From the IMG/VR virus record IMGVR_UViG_3300045988_183931, positions 6,965 through 70,964 of that record: a DNA stretch of 64,000 bases; one strand, written 5' to 3'. Positions within the stretch are counted from its first letter, which is position 1, and every line of letters begins with the position of its first letter. The notes under the pieces were generated by a model, which was not told the DNA's origin, did no database searches, and worked only from the letters and a program-made list of their open reading frames with translations. Both the position numbers and the translations under genes were made by a program. Shown one piece after another: positions 7,896-21,001 of this stretch. This DNA comes from a virus.

Positions 7896-8034
7896 CCATT
7901 GTTGACATTATAAATAATTGTGGTAGTATAATAGTATAATTACGAAGATATTTTTATAAGGAGACTTATCTCCGCTTCCAGTCACACCAAGTATTCAAGA
8001 CAGTTATCCCAAGACAGGGATAGCTGTCTTTTTA
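7896..8034 (+). promoter_or_regulatory. conserved promoter-leader-attenuator module 1 (of 4)
   Basis: TTGACA (7902-7907), 16-nt spacer, TGgTAGTAT extended -10, then a second TATAAT (7935-7940). Small hairpin GGAGA-CTTA-TCTCC (7960-7973). Stem-loop AGACAGTTATCCC..GGGATAGCTGTCT + TTTTT (7998-8033). About 90% identical to the modules at 10.9, 14.9 and 20.9 kb. Confidence 0.6.
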
Positions 8035-8078
8035 TATATTTTTTTACATTACAACACAATAAGAAAGGAGAAAACATA

Positions 8079-8345
8079 ATGGCACAGGCAAAAATGGTTT
8101 TCAGCTATCTCGGACCCGTTCGTGTCTATGACGACATTACCACAAATAAGTGGGGCGGGACGACTATGGCGGTTTCTGAGAAACAGGCTCGCAACAACTT
8201 GGCTCACCAGTATCGAAAACAGCGCGGATTGCTCCAGTGTGTGCCTGTCAAAATGACGGGTGAGCTGACCAGCTACACCGCACCGATAATGCCGCCGTTC
8301 AGGTCCAAGCGGAGACCTTCATATCGCGGAGGTGAAGCGCAATGA
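8079..8345 (+). CDS. hypothetical protein (88 aa)
   Basis: RBS GAAAGGAG, ATG at 8079. First gene of cassette 1. Confidence 0.55.
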   Translation: MAQAKMVFSYLGPVRVYDDITTNKWGGTTMAVSEKQARNNLAHQYRKQRGLLQCVPVKMTGELTSYTAPIMPPFRSKRRPSYRGGEAQ

Positions 8346-8614
8346 TATGGAATGGAAAGTGGAACGGAGCAAATGCCATCGTAGTTCACACGCCGCAGAG
8401 CTTTCGGTCGTTCAAGCGAGCTATCCGTTCTCTTGGCGATGTGTGGGCTGACTGGAATCATGTGTATTTCAGTCAGTGCAGAGATTTGTACTCCGCAGCA
8501 TACCTTCCCTGCTATCCAGACAAGAGTCCCGAAGATAGCACAATCACCTATCACTGGCTCAAGGAAACTTGGTCCAAAGAAGGTCCTCGCGCCGTAGGCA
8601 TGAACATTCAATAA
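8342..8614 (+). CDS. hypothetical protein (90 aa)
   Basis: ATGA start/stop overlap with the upstream gene. Confidence 0.5.
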   Translation: MIWNGKWNGANAIVVHTPQSFRSFKRAIRSLGDVWADWNHVYFSQCRDLYSAAYLPCYPDKSPEDSTITYHWLKETWSKEGPRAVGMNIQ

Positions 8615-8630
8615 TCGAGGAGGAGAAGCT

Positions 8631-8834
8631 ATGTCTACACCGCTGTATGAGTTAATTGAGAGAGCCGAGCGTATGGATTCCGTCTACTCTGAGCGCTACG
8701 CATCTTTCTCTTCTGAACAGGATAGGCGTGCGAAGCAGTGTATTGCGGAGGCTCGCGAAGCTATCGAAGTGCAGCGAAGAAACTGCGAAAGACGACGCCA
8801 GCAGGCAGCCGTAACACTGTCTCGGAAACTTTGA
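8631..8834 (+). CDS. hypothetical small helical protein (67 aa)
   Basis: RBS GAGGAGGAG then ATG. Confidence 0.5.
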   Translation: MSTPLYELIERAERMDSVYSERYASFSSEQDRRAKQCIAEAREAIEVQRRNCERRRQQAAVTLSRKL

Positions 8835-8855
8835 AAAGAAAGGAGTAAATTCATT

Positions 8856-9071
8856 GTGAAAGTAAAAAAGAAAATTCGTTACGCCGGCGAATGCTGCATT
8901 TGCCACGAACCCATTGAGGTTGGCGAAGAATATGTCGAGGCACCCTACGAAAACAAACAGTGTCATATCGACTGCATGGAGACAGAGCCGCTTAAAGCGG
9001 TTCTGTCTTTTTTCGGCATTCCGTCGTGTGTAACCAATTCTGAAGGAAAGGAGACAAGAATCTATGGGTAG
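8856..9071 (+). CDS. small Cys-rich (zinc-ribbon-like) protein (71 aa)
   Basis: GTG start after AAAGGAG. Motifs ECCICHEP and CHIDC. Overlaps the start of the MazF-like gene. Confidence 0.45.
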   Translation: MKVKKKIRYAGECCICHEPIEVGEEYVEAPYENKQCHIDCMETEPLKAVLSFFGIPSCVTNSEGKETRIYG

Positions 9072-9642
9072 AAATGGAAACATCCGCAGGGGCGATGTAT
9101 TTTGGGTCAATGCGAAAGAAATCGAAATCTTTTCCCCTTGGGCCCCGGAAGGAAGTCAGTTCCGCGATAAAGACGGACATCCTTCCAATAGCTCTGTTAT
9201 CAGAGGGCATCGTCCCGCAATCGTTGTATCTTCGGATGACCTGAACCGCTACAGCAGTGTAGTGGAGGTCGTATTTACGACATCATCTCCAAAGATGCAG
9301 CAGCCCTCCCATGTACTCATCACGAGCACGAGCCGCCCCAGCACAGCACTGTGCGAGCAGCCGATGGCAGTTTCTGTCAATGAGCTGGGAGCCTATATCT
9401 GCCACCTGACTGAAGCGGAGCTGGTAGACATCGACGCCGCGCTGTACTACAGCATGGGGCTAAGTGCTCGTGTGAACGACAATGATGATAATACATGGCG
9501 TGCGCGGTATGAAACCATGCACAGGGCATATTCCGAGATGCTTGTCCATGTTATGCGAATCATGGACAGCAACAACAAACGGGCCACACCGTACCCCGCA
9601 GCCACCGTTGGAAGAAGAAAGGAGCAAGCCGAAAATGAGTAA
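9064..9642 (+). CDS. MazF/PemK/EndoA-family endoribonuclease toxin-like protein with ~60-aa C-terminal extension
   Basis: The N-terminal ~130 aa align by eye to B. subtilis EndoA / E. coli MazF: RRGDVFWV, RPAIVVSSDDLNRYSSVVEVVFTTS, P.HV.I, ELVDIDAAL. No MazE-like gene is adjacent. Confidence 0.6.
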   Translation: MGRNGNIRRGDVFWVNAKEIEIFSPWAPEGSQFRDKDGHPSNSSVIRGHRPAIVVSSDDLNRYSSVVEVVFTTSSPKMQQPSHVLITSTSRPSTALCEQPMAVSVNELGAYICHLTEAELVDIDAALYYSMGLSARVNDNDDNTWRARYETMHRAYSEMLVHVMRIMDSNNKRATPYPAATVGRRKEQAENE

Positions 9643-19064: not shown

Positions 19065-19081
19065 CGTTGAAAGGAGAAAAC

Positions 19082-20128
19082 ATGGATAATCTGATTTCGA
19101 ACAAGCGAAAGCTGCATTGCGACGAGAACGTATTGGTCCATATCGTGCGTTACTGCCGTGATACGGATGATGCAGATGGCGACGGCATTAGAGAGGTGGA
19201 AATGTATGTCCCCTTCAAGTATATCTGCAAGGGCGATGCCATTGATATTCCTGATAAGGACACCGACGATGCCTTCAGAACAACCGCCTATGCTGCGGAG
19301 GACGCTTCGTATAGCGAAGCTCGTGCGGGTGGTTGGTTTGTGCCGGTCGCCTGTACTGGGCAGAAAGAGTATGTTCTGAAGCCTGATGATTTCGCACCTT
19401 GGCTCGTGACCCTGAGTGTCGCTTTCACACACGGGTCGTCCTGCAAACTCTTTTTCGAGTGCGTGGAACGAAGCGAAGAGAAGCTGTGGGCAAACATTCA
19501 CAGAATCTTTGACGATGTGCCGACGCTGCGGCATGAGCTGGGTTTCGTTGCCCTCGTCCGACATATGGCACGGAAGTACCTCACACCTGATAGGACGGAG
19601 CCTCTTGGCTTCAGATTCCTTTCGGATGATGTTGTCTGGAGCAACTGTAAAGTGAAGGATATCCTTCCCGACCGGTTCTTCGCAGCAGCGGACATGGAGC
19701 TAACGTTTTACGCCTATGCGGAAGACGAGTATGCTGAGAGTCCCCTATTCTTCGCCAAGCTGCCGTATCTCGGTACGCATCACGGAACTCCCGCAGGCTG
19801 CGTGATTTGCGCCTCCATCCTGCGAAAGCTGGACGAGCTGTATGGCGACCTGCCGACAGAAACGTCCCGCTGGTCGCTTGAATACCAGCTCTGGGCCCGT
19901 ATGCTGCTGACGGAAGGCGCAGTCATGCTGAACCCGATGCATTTGGCACTCTATGAAGACGAGCATACCTTTAATTCGCTTGTCTTTTGCGATGATGCGC
20001 TGGAAGTCAGCGGTGATGCTATTGTATGGAAGAAGGCATCCGGCGCTCCCAGCAACAAGATTACTGAGGCATGGGAAAAAGAGACGGAAAAGTCTGGCTG
20101 CAATGACACATTTACTTGCGCCATTTAA
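19082..20128 (+). CDS. hypothetical protein (348 aa), paralog B of the tandem pair
   Basis: RBS GAAAGGAG, ATG 19082. Shares conserved blocks with 18027..19064. Confidence 0.55.
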   Translation: MDNLISNKRKLHCDENVLVHIVRYCRDTDDADGDGIREVEMYVPFKYICKGDAIDIPDKDTDDAFRTTAYAAEDASYSEARAGGWFVPVACTGQKEYVLKPDDFAPWLVTLSVAFTHGSSCKLFFECVERSEEKLWANIHRIFDDVPTLRHELGFVALVRHMARKYLTPDRTEPLGFRFLSDDVVWSNCKVKDILPDRFFAAADMELTFYAYAEDEYAESPLFFAKLPYLGTHHGTPAGCVICASILRKLDELYGDLPTETSRWSLEYQLWARMLLTEGAVMLNPMHLALYEDEHTFNSLVFCDDALEVSGDAIVWKKASGAPSNKITEAWEKETEKSGCNDTFTCAI

Positions 20129-20153
20129 GCCACGAAAGGAGGGACAAACGAAA

Positions 20154-20795
20154 ATGCTGGATACTTCCGACATTCGCCATTTTGTTATACCGAAGATAAG
20201 AGAGACCATTCTGTATATCAACCGCTATGAGAAAGCGGCTGAAGCCATTGCCGCAATCGTCGGGATGGGTGCGTCCTTACAGGTTCGTCCGAAGCTGTCT
20301 GACCTGCCGCAAGACGCGGCGGAACTGGTTCTGCGGAAGCGCGAACTGGCTGAGTTATACGGCTTCGTTGAACAGAACTACGCCCATCTCCTGATTTCCG
20401 GTATTCTGTTCCACAGCGACTGTGAGAGTAAGCAGAAATCCATCAAAGCGTACCACGAGTTGTACTTTGCGCTGTGCGAGTATATCGTCCATGTGTCACA
20501 TTGCACGGATATACTCTACAAGGCAAAAGGGCAGCATAATGACCCTTTGTGGATTTGGGATGATGATGGTACATTTACGACCGCTTGGACGGCTCAGTAC
20601 CATGATGATTTCGACAACACGCTCTCCGCAATGAGCCATCAGGAAGATGAACTGCTCCAGACCATTTCCAGAAGCGCCGCCGTACTGCGAGACGCCTTCG
20701 CAGCGTTTTCCTTGGATTATCGCAACGACGCTGATGGGTGCGGCCAAAGGGTTCTGAAGGAGTATCAGGAGCGCATGGTTAAAAGGGAATGCTAA
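20154..20795 (+). CDS. hypothetical protein (213 aa)
   Basis: RBS GAAAGGAGGG then ATG. Confidence 0.5.
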   Translation: MLDTSDIRHFVIPKIRETILYINRYEKAAEAIAAIVGMGASLQVRPKLSDLPQDAAELVLRKRELAELYGFVEQNYAHLLISGILFHSDCESKQKSIKAYHELYFALCEYIVHVSHCTDILYKAKGQHNDPLWIWDDDGTFTTAWTAQYHDDFDNTLSAMSHQEDELLQTISRSAAVLRDAFAAFSLDYRNDADGCGQRVLKEYQERMVKREC

Positions 20796-20821
20796 AAGCA
20801 AGATAAAAAAAACTAAATTTC

Positions 20822-20853
20822 AAAAGAAGCTCCTTCGGGAGCTTCTTTTTTTA
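20822..20853 (+). terminator. intrinsic terminator
   Basis: GAAGCTCCTTCGGGAGCTTC + TTTTTTT. Confidence 0.7.
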
Positions 20854-20859
20854 CGTTGC

Positions 20860-21001
20860 TGCTGTTGACAAAATAGCGAAACGTGGTAGTATAATAGTAT
20901 AATTACGAAGATATTTTTATAAGGAGTTTTATCTCCGTTTTTCAAGTCACATCATAAATTCAGACAATCACTTCCCTTTTCGGGCAGTGATTGTCTTTTT
21001 C
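20860..21001 (+). promoter_or_regulatory. conserved promoter-leader-attenuator module 4
   Basis: TTGACA 20865-20870, CGTGGTAGTATAAT, second TATAAT. GGAGTTTTATCTCC. AGACAATCACTTCCC-TTTT-CGGGCAGTGATTGTCT + TTTTT. The stem covaries relative to modules 1-3. Confidence 0.6.

What the first reader, a model, noticed from the sequence alone, without database searches (positions are those of the whole stretch)
7998..20996. Compensatory base changes in the leader terminator hairpins across the four modules
The stems read:
- AGACAGTTATCCC / GGGATAGCTGTCT (module 1);
- AGACAGTTGTTCTC / GAGAACGACTGTCT (modules 2 and 3);
- AGACAATCACTTCCC / GGGCAGTGATTGTCT (module 4).
The outer AGACA...TGTCT is fixed. The inner stem differs in sequence but stays paired in modules 1-3 (module 1 has a G-U wobble, module 4 a T-C mismatch). 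The small GGAGA..TCTCC hairpin likewise varies only in its loop. Covariation argues that the RNA structure, not the DNA sequence, is under selection.
Basis: seen in the sequence. Interest (0 to 1): 0.55.

Follow-up and report, generated by a model that had tools for sequence, protein, structure and literature searches.

The report
Repeated promoter–leader–terminator gates on gene modules
The four hairpins are real transcription terminators placed just after four copies of one strong promoter. They belong to a regulatory cassette repeated about 13 times in a large mobile element of uncultured human-gut bacteria, and their compensatory base changes are the ordinary signature of a working RNA hairpin.

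Summary
All four hairpins are at the stated coordinates, with one slip: module 3 is not identical to module 2.

Each hairpin ends a roughly 95-nt leader inside a ~145-nt cassette. The cassette has these parts:
- TTGACA-16-TGnTAGTAT promoter
- a 44-nt block identical in all four copies
- a small GGAG/CUCC hairpin
- a G-poor linker
- a 13-15 bp terminator followed by a U-run
- the ribosome-binding site of a gene module

Across 37 and 49 distinct copies from related gut-metagenome contigs, the terminator stays 98-99% paired. Seven to eight of its 13 pairs show double changes. G·U mismatches outnumber A·C 65:5, so selection acts on the + strand RNA. The apical stem varies more than the loop yet stays paired.

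The small hairpin shows no covariation among close copies. A diverged relative has a different stem at the same place.

The leader terminators are as strong as the module-end terminators, and no competing fold exists. My best reading is a factor-dependent read-through gate on each module; no factor was identified. The cassettes also act as recombination points: one relative lacks exactly module 2 and carries a hybrid unit.

The covariation is ordinary. The multi-copy gated cassette is a new variant of known antitermination and regulatory-cassette themes.

The parts
7902..7907 (+). Unit 1: -35 hexamer TTGACA
   Evidence: Promoter scan TTGACA-16-TAGTAT with TG. TTGACA is invariant in 78 distinct units.
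7920..7963 (+). Unit 1: invariant 44-nt block. It holds the extended -10 (TGgTAGTAT, 7921-7929), a second -10-like TATAAT (7935-7940) and the first ~25 transcribed bases ending in UAAGGAG.
   Evidence: Same 44-mer (one A/G position) in all four units. Nearly invariant in relatives even in the half not used as search pattern.
7960..7973 (+). Unit 1: small hairpin GGAGA-CUUA-UCUCC
   Evidence: Four near-invariant pairs (one G·U among 37 copies), no covariation in the close family.
7997..8034 (+). Unit 1: leader intrinsic terminator (14-bp stem, U5)
   Evidence: Hairpin dG -22.5.
10945..11006 (+). Unit 2: -35 (10945-10950) through the invariant block (10963-11006)
11003..11016 (+). Unit 2: small hairpin GGAG-CUUUGU-CUCC (closing pair C·U)
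11041..11078 (+). Unit 2: leader intrinsic terminator (15-bp stem, U5)
   Evidence: dG -23.3. Whole leader z = -5.7 against shuffles.
11098..11140 (+). Shared 5'UTR/RBS element GUUCCCAUAAGACCUUAACACAGGCUGGGAGAAAGGAGAAAAAU, immediately upstream of the start codon at 11141
   Evidence: Also present downstream of unit 4 and of most units in relatives.
14931..14992 (+). Unit 3: -35 (14931-14936) through the invariant block (14949-14992)
14989..15002 (+). Unit 3: small hairpin GGAGA-UUUA-UCUCC
15027..15064 (+). Unit 3: leader intrinsic terminator (15-bp stem with two U·G, U5)
   Evidence: dG -21.8.
20865..20926 (+). Unit 4: -35 (20865-20870) through the invariant block (20883-20926)
20923..20936 (+). 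Unit 4: small hairpin GGAG-UUUUAU-CUCC (closing pair U·U)
20962..21000 (+). Unit 4: leader intrinsic terminator (15 positions, one U·C mismatch, U5)
   Evidence: dG -20.8.
21023..21068 (+). Shared 5'UTR/RBS element downstream of unit 4
7858..7890 (+). Terminator ending the RecG operon, just upstream of unit 1
   Evidence: dG -19.4
10903..10927 (+). Module 1 end terminator
   Evidence: dG -16.6
14887..14917 (+). Module 2 end terminator
   Evidence: dG -15.7
20822..20849 (+). Module 3 end terminator
   Evidence: dG -17.8
27615..27644 (+). Module 4 end terminator
   Evidence: dG -21.4
8980..9014 (+). Promoter-less terminator-like hairpin with the same stem base (AGACAG..CUGUCU plus U6). It lies inside the 71-aa ORF 8856-9071, just upstream of the MazF/PemK-like gene (9064-9642).
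   Evidence: Conserved in 21 related loci, with only one loop change and one upstream flank change.
8079..10888 (+). Module 1 genes (seven ORFs, including the MazF/PemK-like gene 9064-9642)
11141..14877 (+). Module 2 genes (including YopX-like 14374-14877). The whole module is absent in relative L052.
15102..20795 (+). Module 3 genes (ORFans; weak ProQ-C-like hit at 15798-16166)
21069..27610 (+). Module 4 genes (AAA_5-like, DUF3232, VWA/CobT-like, HD)

Best explanation
**What it is.** Each hairpin is the Rho-independent terminator of a short leader RNA of about 95 nt. The leader is transcribed by host sigma-A RNA polymerase from a consensus extended -10 promoter.

**The cassette.** Promoter, invariant initially transcribed block, small hairpin, G-poor linker, terminator and a standard 5'UTR/RBS together form a self-contained regulatory cassette. 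One cassette heads every gene module in two co-oriented arrays. There are four in this window and about 13 module types in the element family. The element is a large (~115-140 kb) integrative element of uncultured human-gut Firmicutes.

**How it most likely works.**
- The terminator acts as a gate. By default, most polymerases that start at these strong promoters stop after about 95 nt.
- The module is expressed when an element-encoded (or induced host) factor lets the polymerase read through. That factor would be recruited through the invariant block and/or the small hairpin.
- The factor would need only the constant 5' part of the leader and the conserved stem base. The apical stem would then be free to drift, provided it still pairs.

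**Evolutionary role.** Being repeated, the cassettes are also substrates for homologous recombination that adds and removes whole modules.

**Shown:**
- the cassette architecture;
- RNA-level selection on the terminator;
- its strength relative to the operon-end terminators;
- the absence of an intrinsic antiterminator fold;
- a module deletion at the cassettes.

**Inferred:**
- that termination is efficient in vivo;
- that read-through is factor-dependent;
- where the factor binds.
For: **Architecture**
- Searches give the layout; one search shows four and only four units in the window.
- The promoter TTGACA-16/18-TGnTAnnAT is conserved across three diverged unit classes.

**The terminator is selected as + strand RNA**
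- Pairing is 97.9% and 98.8%; 7 and 8 of 13 pairs have double changes; 0/500 shuffles reach this; slid registers give 45-63%.
- G·U outnumbers A·C 65:5 and 97:3, and the apical stem is more variable than the loop.

**The terminator is strong and unopposed**
- Hairpin dG is -18.6 to -23.3 in 37 copies.
- In the window, leader terminators (-20.8 to -23.3) are at least as stable as the module-end terminators (-15.7 to -21.4).
- The leader without the 3' arm folds at only about -7.9 kcal/mol.

**Conserved and variable segments alternate, arguing for function rather than recent copying**
- TTGACA is invariant, while the promoter spacer varies.
- The 44-nt block is invariant; the hairpin loop varies.
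- The linker is moderately conserved (0.11) and the stem base conserved (0.05), but the apex is free (0.276).

**Only module promoters are gated**
- The consensus promoter of the RecG operon at 3496-3525 has no leader terminator.

**A diverged relative keeps the plan with different sequences**
- L096, whose RecG is 67% identical, has the same layout with a GGGUAU/AUGCCC hairpin and an AGGCAG/CUGCCU stem base.

**Known precedent**
- A small leader hairpin plus a leader terminator is the experimentally defined target architecture of LoaP antitermination in Bacillus (PMC12691694).

**Recombination role**
- L052 lacks window 11087-14927 (all of module 2) and carries a unit 2/unit 3 hybrid.
- Alternative module successors occur across contigs.
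Against: - No antiterminator was identified. Pfam, PHROGs and NCBIfam scans of about 60 window and flank proteins scanned individually, plus 117 representatives of proteins encoded outside the window scanned in bulk (only the 25 commonest of 47 matched Pfam families were listed; a 75-member subset was listed in full), showed no NusG/NGN, Q, N or ANTAR/CAT domain. Most module proteins are ORFans, so this absence is weak evidence.
- If antitermination were processive, the module-end terminators and the re-initiating promoters would be redundant.
- The tandem -10-like element and the GGAG/CUCC hairpin are not conserved in all diverged classes. Class C lacks a clear small hairpin.
- There is no expression data. 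Termination efficiency, the transcription start site and read-through are all unmeasured.
Confidence: 0.5

Rival explanations
1. Constitutive attenuator or insulator. The leader terminator is a fixed, leaky valve that scales down output from a very strong shared promoter and insulates modules from one another. No dedicated read-through factor exists. Regulation, if any, is at initiation, for example a repressor binding the invariant 44-bp block, as MrpR binds SPBRE repeats in the promoter regions of ten SPbeta genes.
For: - No antiterminator gene was found.
- Every module is bracketed by its own terminators and promoter.
- The invariant block spans the -10 region, where an operator would act.
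- HTH_3 and LexA-type DNA-binding proteins are encoded in the arrays.
- SPbeta has a 15-bp repeat at ten promoter regions bound by its master repressor (PMC10516654).
Against: - A 14-15 bp, -21 to -23 kcal/mol hairpin with U5 is as strong as the operon-end terminators. That makes it a wasteful way to tune a promoter that could simply be weakened.
- Conservation extends about 25 nt into the transcript and to the linker and stem base. An operator alone does not explain that.
Confidence: 0.22
2. The short leader transcript is itself the product. About 13 strong promoters would make an abundant ~95-nt RNA with a constant 5' part (containing UAAGGAG) and a terminator hairpin. This RNA would act in trans as a decoy or regulator, for example by titrating 30S subunits or an RNA-binding protein, or as a substrate of a ProQ/FinO-like protein. 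Downstream genes would be expressed only by leak-through.
For: - The 5' 45 nt are constant and the stem base plus U-run are conserved.
- A perfect Shine-Dalgarno-like UAAGGAG has no start codon after it in classes A and C.
- A weak ProQ-C-like hit lies in module 3 (E = 1.3e-4, below the Pfam cut-off).
- This is analogous to type III toxin-antitoxin loci, where a terminator sets the RNA-to-protein ratio (own knowledge).
Against: - No antisense target was found in the window.
- No Rfam family matches.
- The unit is always fused to an RBS and genes, often via a shared 5'UTR, which points to a cis role.
- Diverged classes keep the architecture but not the 5' sequence.
Confidence: 0.12
3. Self-contained attenuation by alternative RNA folding: a riboswitch, T-box, leader peptide, RAT-type or zipper-type attenuator.
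For: Position between promoter and genes. Zipper-type attenuators were recently found in leaders of Gram-positive conjugation operons (PMC13401043).
Against: - No Rfam match, even at E <= 10.
- Only about 55 nt lie upstream of the terminator.
- The truncated leader has no fold competing with the terminator (-7.9 against -20.9 kcal/mol).
- The 5' arm apex varies while the upstream leader is constant, so an antiterminator pairing could not be maintained.
- No conserved start codon follows the SD-like motif.
Confidence: 0.04
4. The inverted repeats act as DNA: a cruciform, a protein-binding palindrome, a single-strand origin or promoter, or an RNA read from the opposite strand.
For: The stem base AGACAG/CTGTCT is sequence-conserved. 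The element may transfer or replicate through single-stranded DNA.
Against: - The G·U to A·C asymmetry (65:5 and 97:3) is specific to + strand RNA.
- The distance between the conserved half-sites varies (loop and apex indels).
- The T-run lies on one side only.
Confidence: 0.03

Closest known systems
Lambda-type late promoter PR'-tR' with Q antitermination
   Same: - A strong constitutive sigma-70-type promoter is followed at short distance by an intrinsic terminator, so that only a short RNA is made unless a factor modifies the polymerase near the promoter.
- In class A units a perfect TATAAT lies 5 bp after the -10 hexamer (a second TAGTAT starts 2 bp after it). That is about where lambda's pause-inducing -10-like element lies (own knowledge for lambda; here).
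   Different: - About 13 copies per element instead of one.
- The host is a Firmicute.
- No Q homologue was detected.
- The tandem -10-like element is absent from class B units.
- Each module ends with its own terminator, which argues against long-range processivity.
LoaP (NusG paralogue) antitermination in Bacillus velezensis dfn/mln leaders (PMC12691694)
   Same: A Gram-positive leader containing a small, sequence-conserved RNA hairpin upstream of an intrinsic leader terminator. The hairpin recruits the factor, and the terminator is the control point.
   Different: - The LoaP hairpin has a UNCG tetraloop. Here the loops are CUUA, UUUA or CUUUGU.
- LoaP leaders are about 400 nt and occur once per operon.
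- No NGN/KOW protein was found in the DNA examined.
PeSL cassettes (promoter-early stem-loop) of T4-like phages (PMC2839356, PMC4122927)
   Same: Short, conserved, composite terminator/promoter cassettes are repeated many times. They flank small blocks of mostly ORFan genes and mediate insertion, deletion and replacement of those blocks by recombination. Here, L052 lost module 2 through a unit 2/unit 3 crossover.
   Different: - As I read PeSLs, the stem-loop precedes the promoter. Here there is an additional strong terminator after the promoter, in the leader, plus a long invariant transcribed block.
- A different host phylum and a different element type.
SPBRE repeats / MrpR master repressor of the Bacillus prophage SPbeta (PMC10516654)
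   Same: A ~134-kb (SPbeta size from own knowledge) element with a large serine recombinase integrated in a sporulation gene. It carries a short conserved DNA element repeated at ten promoter regions of largely uncharacterised genes. This is a plausible analogue of the invariant 44-bp block.
   Different: - SPBRE is a 15-bp operator with no described leader terminator.
- No sequence similarity was tested (the SPBRE sequence is not to hand).
- No MrpR-like (tyrosine-recombinase-fold) protein was seen.
conAn processive antitermination and the zipper-type attenuator of pLS20-family conjugative plasmids (PMC13401043)
   Same: A Gram-positive mobile element in which a leader terminator downstream of the main promoter limits expression of a long gene array.
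   Different: - One long (456-nt) leader per operon.
- Read-through is decided by an alternative long stem formed with an upstream stem-loop. No such complementarity exists here.

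Membership tests
Rho-independent (intrinsic) terminator | Stable stem-loop in the transcript | tested here: met
   13-15 bp stems. dG -18.6 to -23.3 kcal/mol in 37 copies. Leader z-score -5.7.
Rho-independent (intrinsic) terminator | U-run immediately 3' of the stem on the transcribed strand | tested here: met
   CUUUUU(A/C)UAUAU follows every copy. No T-run on the opposite strand.
Rho-independent (intrinsic) terminator | Pairing maintained by selection at the RNA level | tested here: met
   98-99% paired; 7-8 of 13 pairs with double changes; G·U much more frequent than A·C.
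Rho-independent (intrinsic) terminator | Actual transcript release at the U-run | not testable with these tools
   Needs Term-seq or in vitro transcription.
Lambda Q-type antitermination site | Promoter-proximal terminator downstream of a constitutive promoter | tested here: met
   Consensus -35 and extended -10, with the terminator ending about 95 nt downstream.
Lambda Q-type antitermination site | -10-like pause-inducing element in the initially transcribed region | tested here: inconclusive
   TATAAT begins 5 bp (a second TAGTAT 2 bp) after the -10 in class A. TATTAT or TATCAT occur in some class C units. Absent in class B. The start site is not mapped.
Lambda Q-type antitermination site | Q-family protein encoded by the element | tested here: not met
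   No Q-family Pfam hit among the proteins scanned. Only part of the element was available, and one search listed only 25 of 47 matched families.
Lambda N/nut site | boxA plus a boxB hairpin (5-bp stem, GNRA-like pentaloop) and an arginine-rich N protein | tested here: not met
   The hairpin has a 4-6 nt pyrimidine-rich loop and no boxA-like motif. No N-terminal arginine-rich small protein was found. One 67-aa ORF (8631-8834) has a C-terminal RRNCERRRQQ stretch.
LoaP target leader | UNCG-tetraloop hairpin in the leader | tested here: not met
   Loops are CUUA, UUUA, CUUUGU or UUUUAU.
LoaP target leader | Intrinsic terminator in the leader downstream of the hairpin | tested here: met
   The terminator starts 24-27 nt after the hairpin.
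LoaP target leader | NusG paralogue (NGN + KOW) encoded nearby | tested here: not met
   No NGN/KOW hit in window proteins or in the fully listed 75-member subset of module proteins. The 117-member scan listed only 25 of 47 matched families.
Riboswitch / T-box / other Rfam cis-regulator | Match to a curated covariance model | tested here: not met
   Only tRNAs at gathering score. Best leader hit E = 0.085, far below gathering.
Zipper-type or classical terminator/antiterminator attenuator | Alternative pairing that sequesters the 5' arm of the terminator | tested here: not met
   Truncated leader MFE is about -7.9 against -20.9 kcal/mol for the terminator. The 5' arm apex varies against a constant upstream leader.
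PeSL-like mobile regulatory cassette | Conserved promoter plus stem-loop cassette repeated between small gene blocks | tested here: met
   Four in the window and 15 module types in the family, all co-oriented.
PeSL-like mobile regulatory cassette | Indels of gene blocks with end points in the cassettes | tested here: met
   L052 lacks window 11087-14927 and has a hybrid unit 2/unit 3 junction. Alternative successors such as 10>8 against 10>12>11>8.
PeSL-like mobile regulatory cassette | T4-like myovirus hyperplastic regions | tested here: not met
   A different element: serine-recombinase integrative element of Firmicutes.

The most novel reading that the evidence does not exclude
The cassettes are targets of a new antitermination system. 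An element-encoded factor with no detectable similarity to N, Q, NusG/LoaP or conAn would recognise the invariant initially transcribed block and/or the small hairpin. It may engage a sigma-dependent paused complex at the tandem -10 elements. It would open about 13 identical promoter-proximal terminator gates at once, switching on all accessory modules of a ~130-kb gut Firmicute element.
Probability: 0.25. Interest if true: 0.7.

Novelty: new variant of a known kind. Interest (0 to 1): 0.4.

Why it matters
The covariation itself teaches nothing new. It shows that these are working RNA hairpins.

The arrangement is more useful. A strong terminator is wedged between a consensus promoter and its genes, and this is repeated about 13 times with a 44-nt invariant block. 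It offers a compact, sequence-defined handle on how a large, almost entirely unannotated mobile element of human-gut Firmicutes times the expression of its accessory genes.

- If read-through is factor-dependent, the cassette is a ready-made reporter for finding that factor among ORFans. Few antitermination systems are known in Gram-positive bacteria.
- The cassettes also give a concrete mechanism, unit-to-unit recombination, for the module-by-module variation seen between related elements.

Tried and rejected
**Known RNA families.** Rfam at gathering score and at E <= 10 on one unit gave no family.

**Leader peptide.** No conserved start codon follows UAAGGAG in classes A and C. Class B has a three-codon ATG-CCC-ACA-TAA.

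**Antiterminator or zipper fold.** None was found.

**Trans antisense target of the leader in the window.** None beyond chance.

**T7-like promoter resemblance.** TAATTACGA..TATAAGGAGA resembles TAATACGACTCACTATAGGGAGA. I judged this a coincidence for three reasons:
- it is 5 nt longer;
- TTGACA at 16 bp is invariant;
- no single-subunit polymerase was seen.

**Search for the factor.**
- Pfam, PHROGs and NCBIfam on about 60 window and flank proteins individually, plus 117 representatives of proteins from related loci in bulk, of which only the 25 commonest of 47 matched families were listed.
- PDB sequence search of the two ORFans of the ungated RecG operon.
- AlphaFold2 on those two proteins with 4- and 5-sequence alignments gave pLDDT 56 and 34. 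The Foldseek hits were meaningless.

**Cultured relatives.**
- No match to the motif or to the RecG-like protein among GTDB species-representative genomes.
- No DNA match in INPHARED phages or PLSDB plasmids.

**Phage or conjugative element.** Unresolved.
- IMG/VR lists the contigs as viral, and YopX, YqaJ, ThyX and DUF1064 are phage-like.
- The TopB-like topoisomerase, the giant TED/TQ/SpaA adhesins, the sortase-like gene, and DpnD/PcfM and Fic in a relative are typical of conjugative elements.

Full report
**1. Observation**

The pattern AGACA..TGTCT occurs five times on the + strand.
- 7998-8029
- 11042-11073
- 15028-15059
- 20962-20996

The sequences match the quotation, with one exception. 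Module 3 is AGACAGTTGTTCTC-ATTT-GGGAACGACTGTCT, not a copy of module 2. It has a different loop base and an A-to-G change that turns a U-A pair into U·G.

The bare pattern is not significant: 5 found against 2.06 expected, and 7 of 100 shuffles reach 5. The four hairpins are, however, embedded in a repeated unit.
- The 44-mer GTGGTAGTATARTAGTATAATTACGAAGATATTTTTATAAGGAG occurs exactly four times, with 0 expected.
- A profile of the unit finds those four with E = 1e-36 to 3e-44 and nothing else in the window.

**2. Anatomy of a unit**

In order along the + strand, each unit contains:
- the terminator of the preceding operon;
- TTGACA, a variable 13-nt spacer segment, then TGgTAGTAT: an extended -10 sigma-A-type promoter with a 16-bp spacer;
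- a second -10-like element: TAGTAT recurs 2 bp after the -10, and TATAAT begins 5 bp after it;
- about 20 invariant A/U-rich transcribed bases ending in UAAGGAG;
- a small hairpin GGAG(N)/(N)CUCC;
- a G-poor linker of about 25 nt (..CAGUCACAUCAUCA..UUCA);
- the 13-15 bp hairpin with the U-run CUUUUUAUAUAU;
- either directly an RBS, or first a shared 5'UTR (GUUCCCAUAAGNCCUUAUCACAGGCUGGGAGAAAGGAG) and then the first gene.

Each module ends with its own terminator (10903-10927, 14887-14917, 20822-20849, 27615-27644). The consensus promoter of the upstream RecG operon (3496-3525) has no such leader terminator.

**3. Relatives**

The 23-mer TACGAAGATATTTTTATAAGGAG matches 77 stretches of IMG/VR contigs of 9-140 kb. 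There are up to 11-12 copies per contig, all co-oriented. It matches none of the GTDB species-representative genomes.
- Window and loci together hold 116 copies, giving 37 distinct leaders.
- Searching with the other half of the block, and with the terminator base and U-run in metagenomes, brought in human-gut contigs of 100-190 kb and more diverged units.
- Neither half of the 44-nt block varies much when the other half is used as bait.

Variants are limited to:
- the length or one base of the T-run in GATATTTTTAT;
- one copy with a broken small hairpin (TATCC).

**4. Covariation test**

On the alignment of 37 distinct leaders (A1):
- the terminator helix (13 pairs) is 97.9% paired;
- 3 pairs never vary, 3 vary on one side only, and 7 change on both sides;
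- sliding the 3' partner by 1-3 columns gives 45-62% pairing;
- no shuffle of 500 reaches the observed pairing or covariation score.

RNAalifold independently predicts the same helix.

A covariance model built from A1 and run on the metagenome loci gives 92 hits and 49 distinct rows. Pairing is 98.8%, with 8 of 13 pairs changed on both sides.

Non-Watson-Crick cells are G·U 65 against A·C 5 in A1, and 97 against 3 in A2. That asymmetry is expected only if the + strand RNA is the selected molecule.

Column variability:

| Segment | Variability |
|---|---|
| Apical stem | 0.276 |
| Loop | 0.20 |
| Linker | 0.11 |
| Stem base | 0.05 |

Substitutions are therefore frequent in the stem but almost never disruptive. 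The outer AGACA/UGUCU is not fixed in relatives, where AGGCA/UGCCU and G·U intermediates occur.

**5. The small hairpin**

Within the close family it has four near-invariant pairs (one G·U in 37 copies). Its closing pair is unpaired in 11 of 37 copies, so there is no covariation.

In a diverged relative (L096, RecG 67% identical, same gene order), both units have a 6-7 bp hairpin at the same place, directly after UAAGG. Its sequence is different: GGGUAU(C)/(G)AUGCCC. That supports a conserved structure.

A third class (L112, L114, L118, L151) keeps the promoter, a UAAGGAAG-like motif and the terminator, but has no clear small hairpin.

**6. Terminator strength and alternatives**
- Hairpin dG is -18.6 to -23.3 kcal/mol across the 37 copies.
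- In the window, the leader terminators (-20.8 to -23.3) are at least as stable as the module-end terminators (-15.7 to -21.4).
- With the 3' arm removed, the leader folds at only about -7.9 kcal/mol, so there is no built-in antiterminator.
- The apical 5' arm varies against a constant upstream leader, so a conserved alternative pairing is impossible.
- Rfam has no match.
- No conserved start codon follows the SD-like motif.
- No antisense target exists in the window.

**7. Context**

The modules encode mostly ORFans. The exceptions are:
- a MazF/PemK-like protein
- YopX
- a weak ProQ-C-like hit
- DUF3232
- an AAA_5/VWA pair
- an HD protein

In the second array the recognisable genes are SSB, ThyX, YqaJ, a RecD2-like helicase, a methylase, DUF3846, PBECR4, MazE and HTH proteins.

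The rest of the window holds a TopB-like topoisomerase, an SPFH protein, a nuclease, YdjM, an HTH protein and two giant TED/TQ/SpaA adhesins.

About 6.5 kb (roughly 5.4-7.6 kb) left of the window lie a large serine recombinase and a 163-aa fragment matching residues 95-257 of SigG. Host-like peptidase genes follow. The element is therefore integrated, apparently within sigG. Whether it is a prophage or a conjugative element is unresolved.

**8. Module turnover**

Clustering the 400 nt downstream of 191 units gives 15 module types. They form the chains 1>4>3>9 (the window) and 10>12>11>8>0>2>6>5>7, with alternative successors.

L052 aligns to window 4628-11086 and then to 14928-22572. It lacks exactly module 2. 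Its junction unit is unit 2 on the left and unit 3 on the right, with the crossover in the shared 5' arm.

The cassettes therefore also serve as recombination sites, as described for PeSLs in T4-like phages (PMC2839356, PMC4122927).

**9. Mechanism**

*Shown:* these are RNA-selected, strong, promoter-proximal intrinsic terminators in a multi-copy cassette, with no intrinsic switch.

*Inferred:* they gate module expression, and read-through needs a trans-acting factor that recognises the constant part of the cassette.

Two known architectures fit this best:
- lambda PR'-tR'/Q, which combines a constitutive promoter, a -10-like pause element, a nearby terminator and a factor loaded at the promoter (own knowledge);
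- LoaP, which uses a small leader hairpin plus a NusA-dependent leader terminator (PMC12691694).

Neither membership is met. There is no Q or NusG-like protein, no UNCG loop, and the tandem -10 element is not universal.

The invariant block could equally be an operator, as SPBRE is for MrpR in SPbeta (PMC10516654). The terminator would then be a fixed attenuator. I put the factor-dependent gate at about 0.5 and the fixed attenuator or insulator at about 0.2. The functional short RNA gets about 0.1, and the remaining alternatives are below 0.05 each.

**10. Dead ends**

AlphaFold2 models of the two ORFans in the ungated RecG operon were of low confidence (pLDDT 56 and 34), and the fold search was uninformative. 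No similar DNA exists in INPHARED phages or PLSDB plasmids.

**11. Verdict**

The noteworthy feature is the repeated promoter-hairpin-terminator gate, a new variant of known antitermination and regulatory-cassette themes in an uncultured gut element. Interest is moderate (0.4).

Noticed in passing
L089 15974-18138 (left flank, roughly 5.4-7.6 kb beyond window position 1); also L099 850-1335: A large serine recombinase is followed directly by a 163-aa ORF that matches only residues ~95-257 of the forespore sigma factor SigG (NF006071, E = 1.2e-74). Host-like peptidase M16 genes come next. A diverged relative shows the same SigG fragment at its junction. The element seems to be inserted inside sigG. 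A literature search for intervening elements in sigG found none. Interruption of a forespore-expressed gene would be unusual, because known cases (sigK, spsM, gerE) are, to my knowledge, mother-cell genes.
   Followed up: partly
window 8980-9014: A fifth terminator-like hairpin with the same stem base and a T6 run (AGACAGAGCCGC-TTAAA-GCGGTTCTGTCT). It has no promoter or leader. It lies inside the 71-aa ORF 8856-9071, immediately upstream of the MazF/PemK-like gene. It is conserved in 21 related loci. It may be a translation-sensitive attenuator of the toxin-like gene, or a relic of a former unit.
   Followed up: partly
window 11098-11140 and 21023-21068; most units in L001-L155: A shared 5'UTR, GUUCCCAUAAGNCCUUAUCACAGGCUGGGAGAAAGGAG, lies between the leader terminator and the start codon of many first genes. 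It may form a small CCC..CCU/AGG..GGG hairpin next to a double SD. No clear covariation.
   Followed up: no
window 1007-2065 (-): An IS605-family OrfB/TnpB gene (HTH_OrfB_IS605, OrfB_IS605, partial TNB domain) sits inside the element.
   Followed up: no
window 2452-3334 (-): A consensus extended -10 promoter on the minus strand (3334-3306) reads through about 300 nt of non-coding DNA into four tRNA genes (Glu-CTC, Thr-CGT, Thr-TGT, Gly-TCC). A fifth tRNA (Ser-TGA) lies at 31137-31224. ARAGORN finds tRNA-Glu at 2917-2995, which Rfam at gathering score did not list.
   Followed up: no
window 45276-50942 (-) and 52976-63991 (-); L089 13997-14797: Two giant surface proteins (1,888 aa and more than 3,600 aa). 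They contain a thioester domain, 5 and 18 T-Q ester-bond domains, and many SpaA-like domains. Their length varies between relatives (3,449-3,789 aa). A weak sortase-like gene lies in the left flank.
   Followed up: no
window 3649-5724 (+): The element carries a full-length RecG helicase, about 55% identical to many RecG-family sequences in the database. It heads the only ungated operon next to the arrays, followed by two ORFans (322 and 390 aa) that have only 3-6 database relatives.
   Followed up: partly
L003 against window 16146-18138; L031: Besides whole-module indels, relatives show a 2-kb deletion inside module 3. One 31-kb contig joins module 3 directly to the adhesin region; this is either a rearranged variant or a misassembly.
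   Followed up: no
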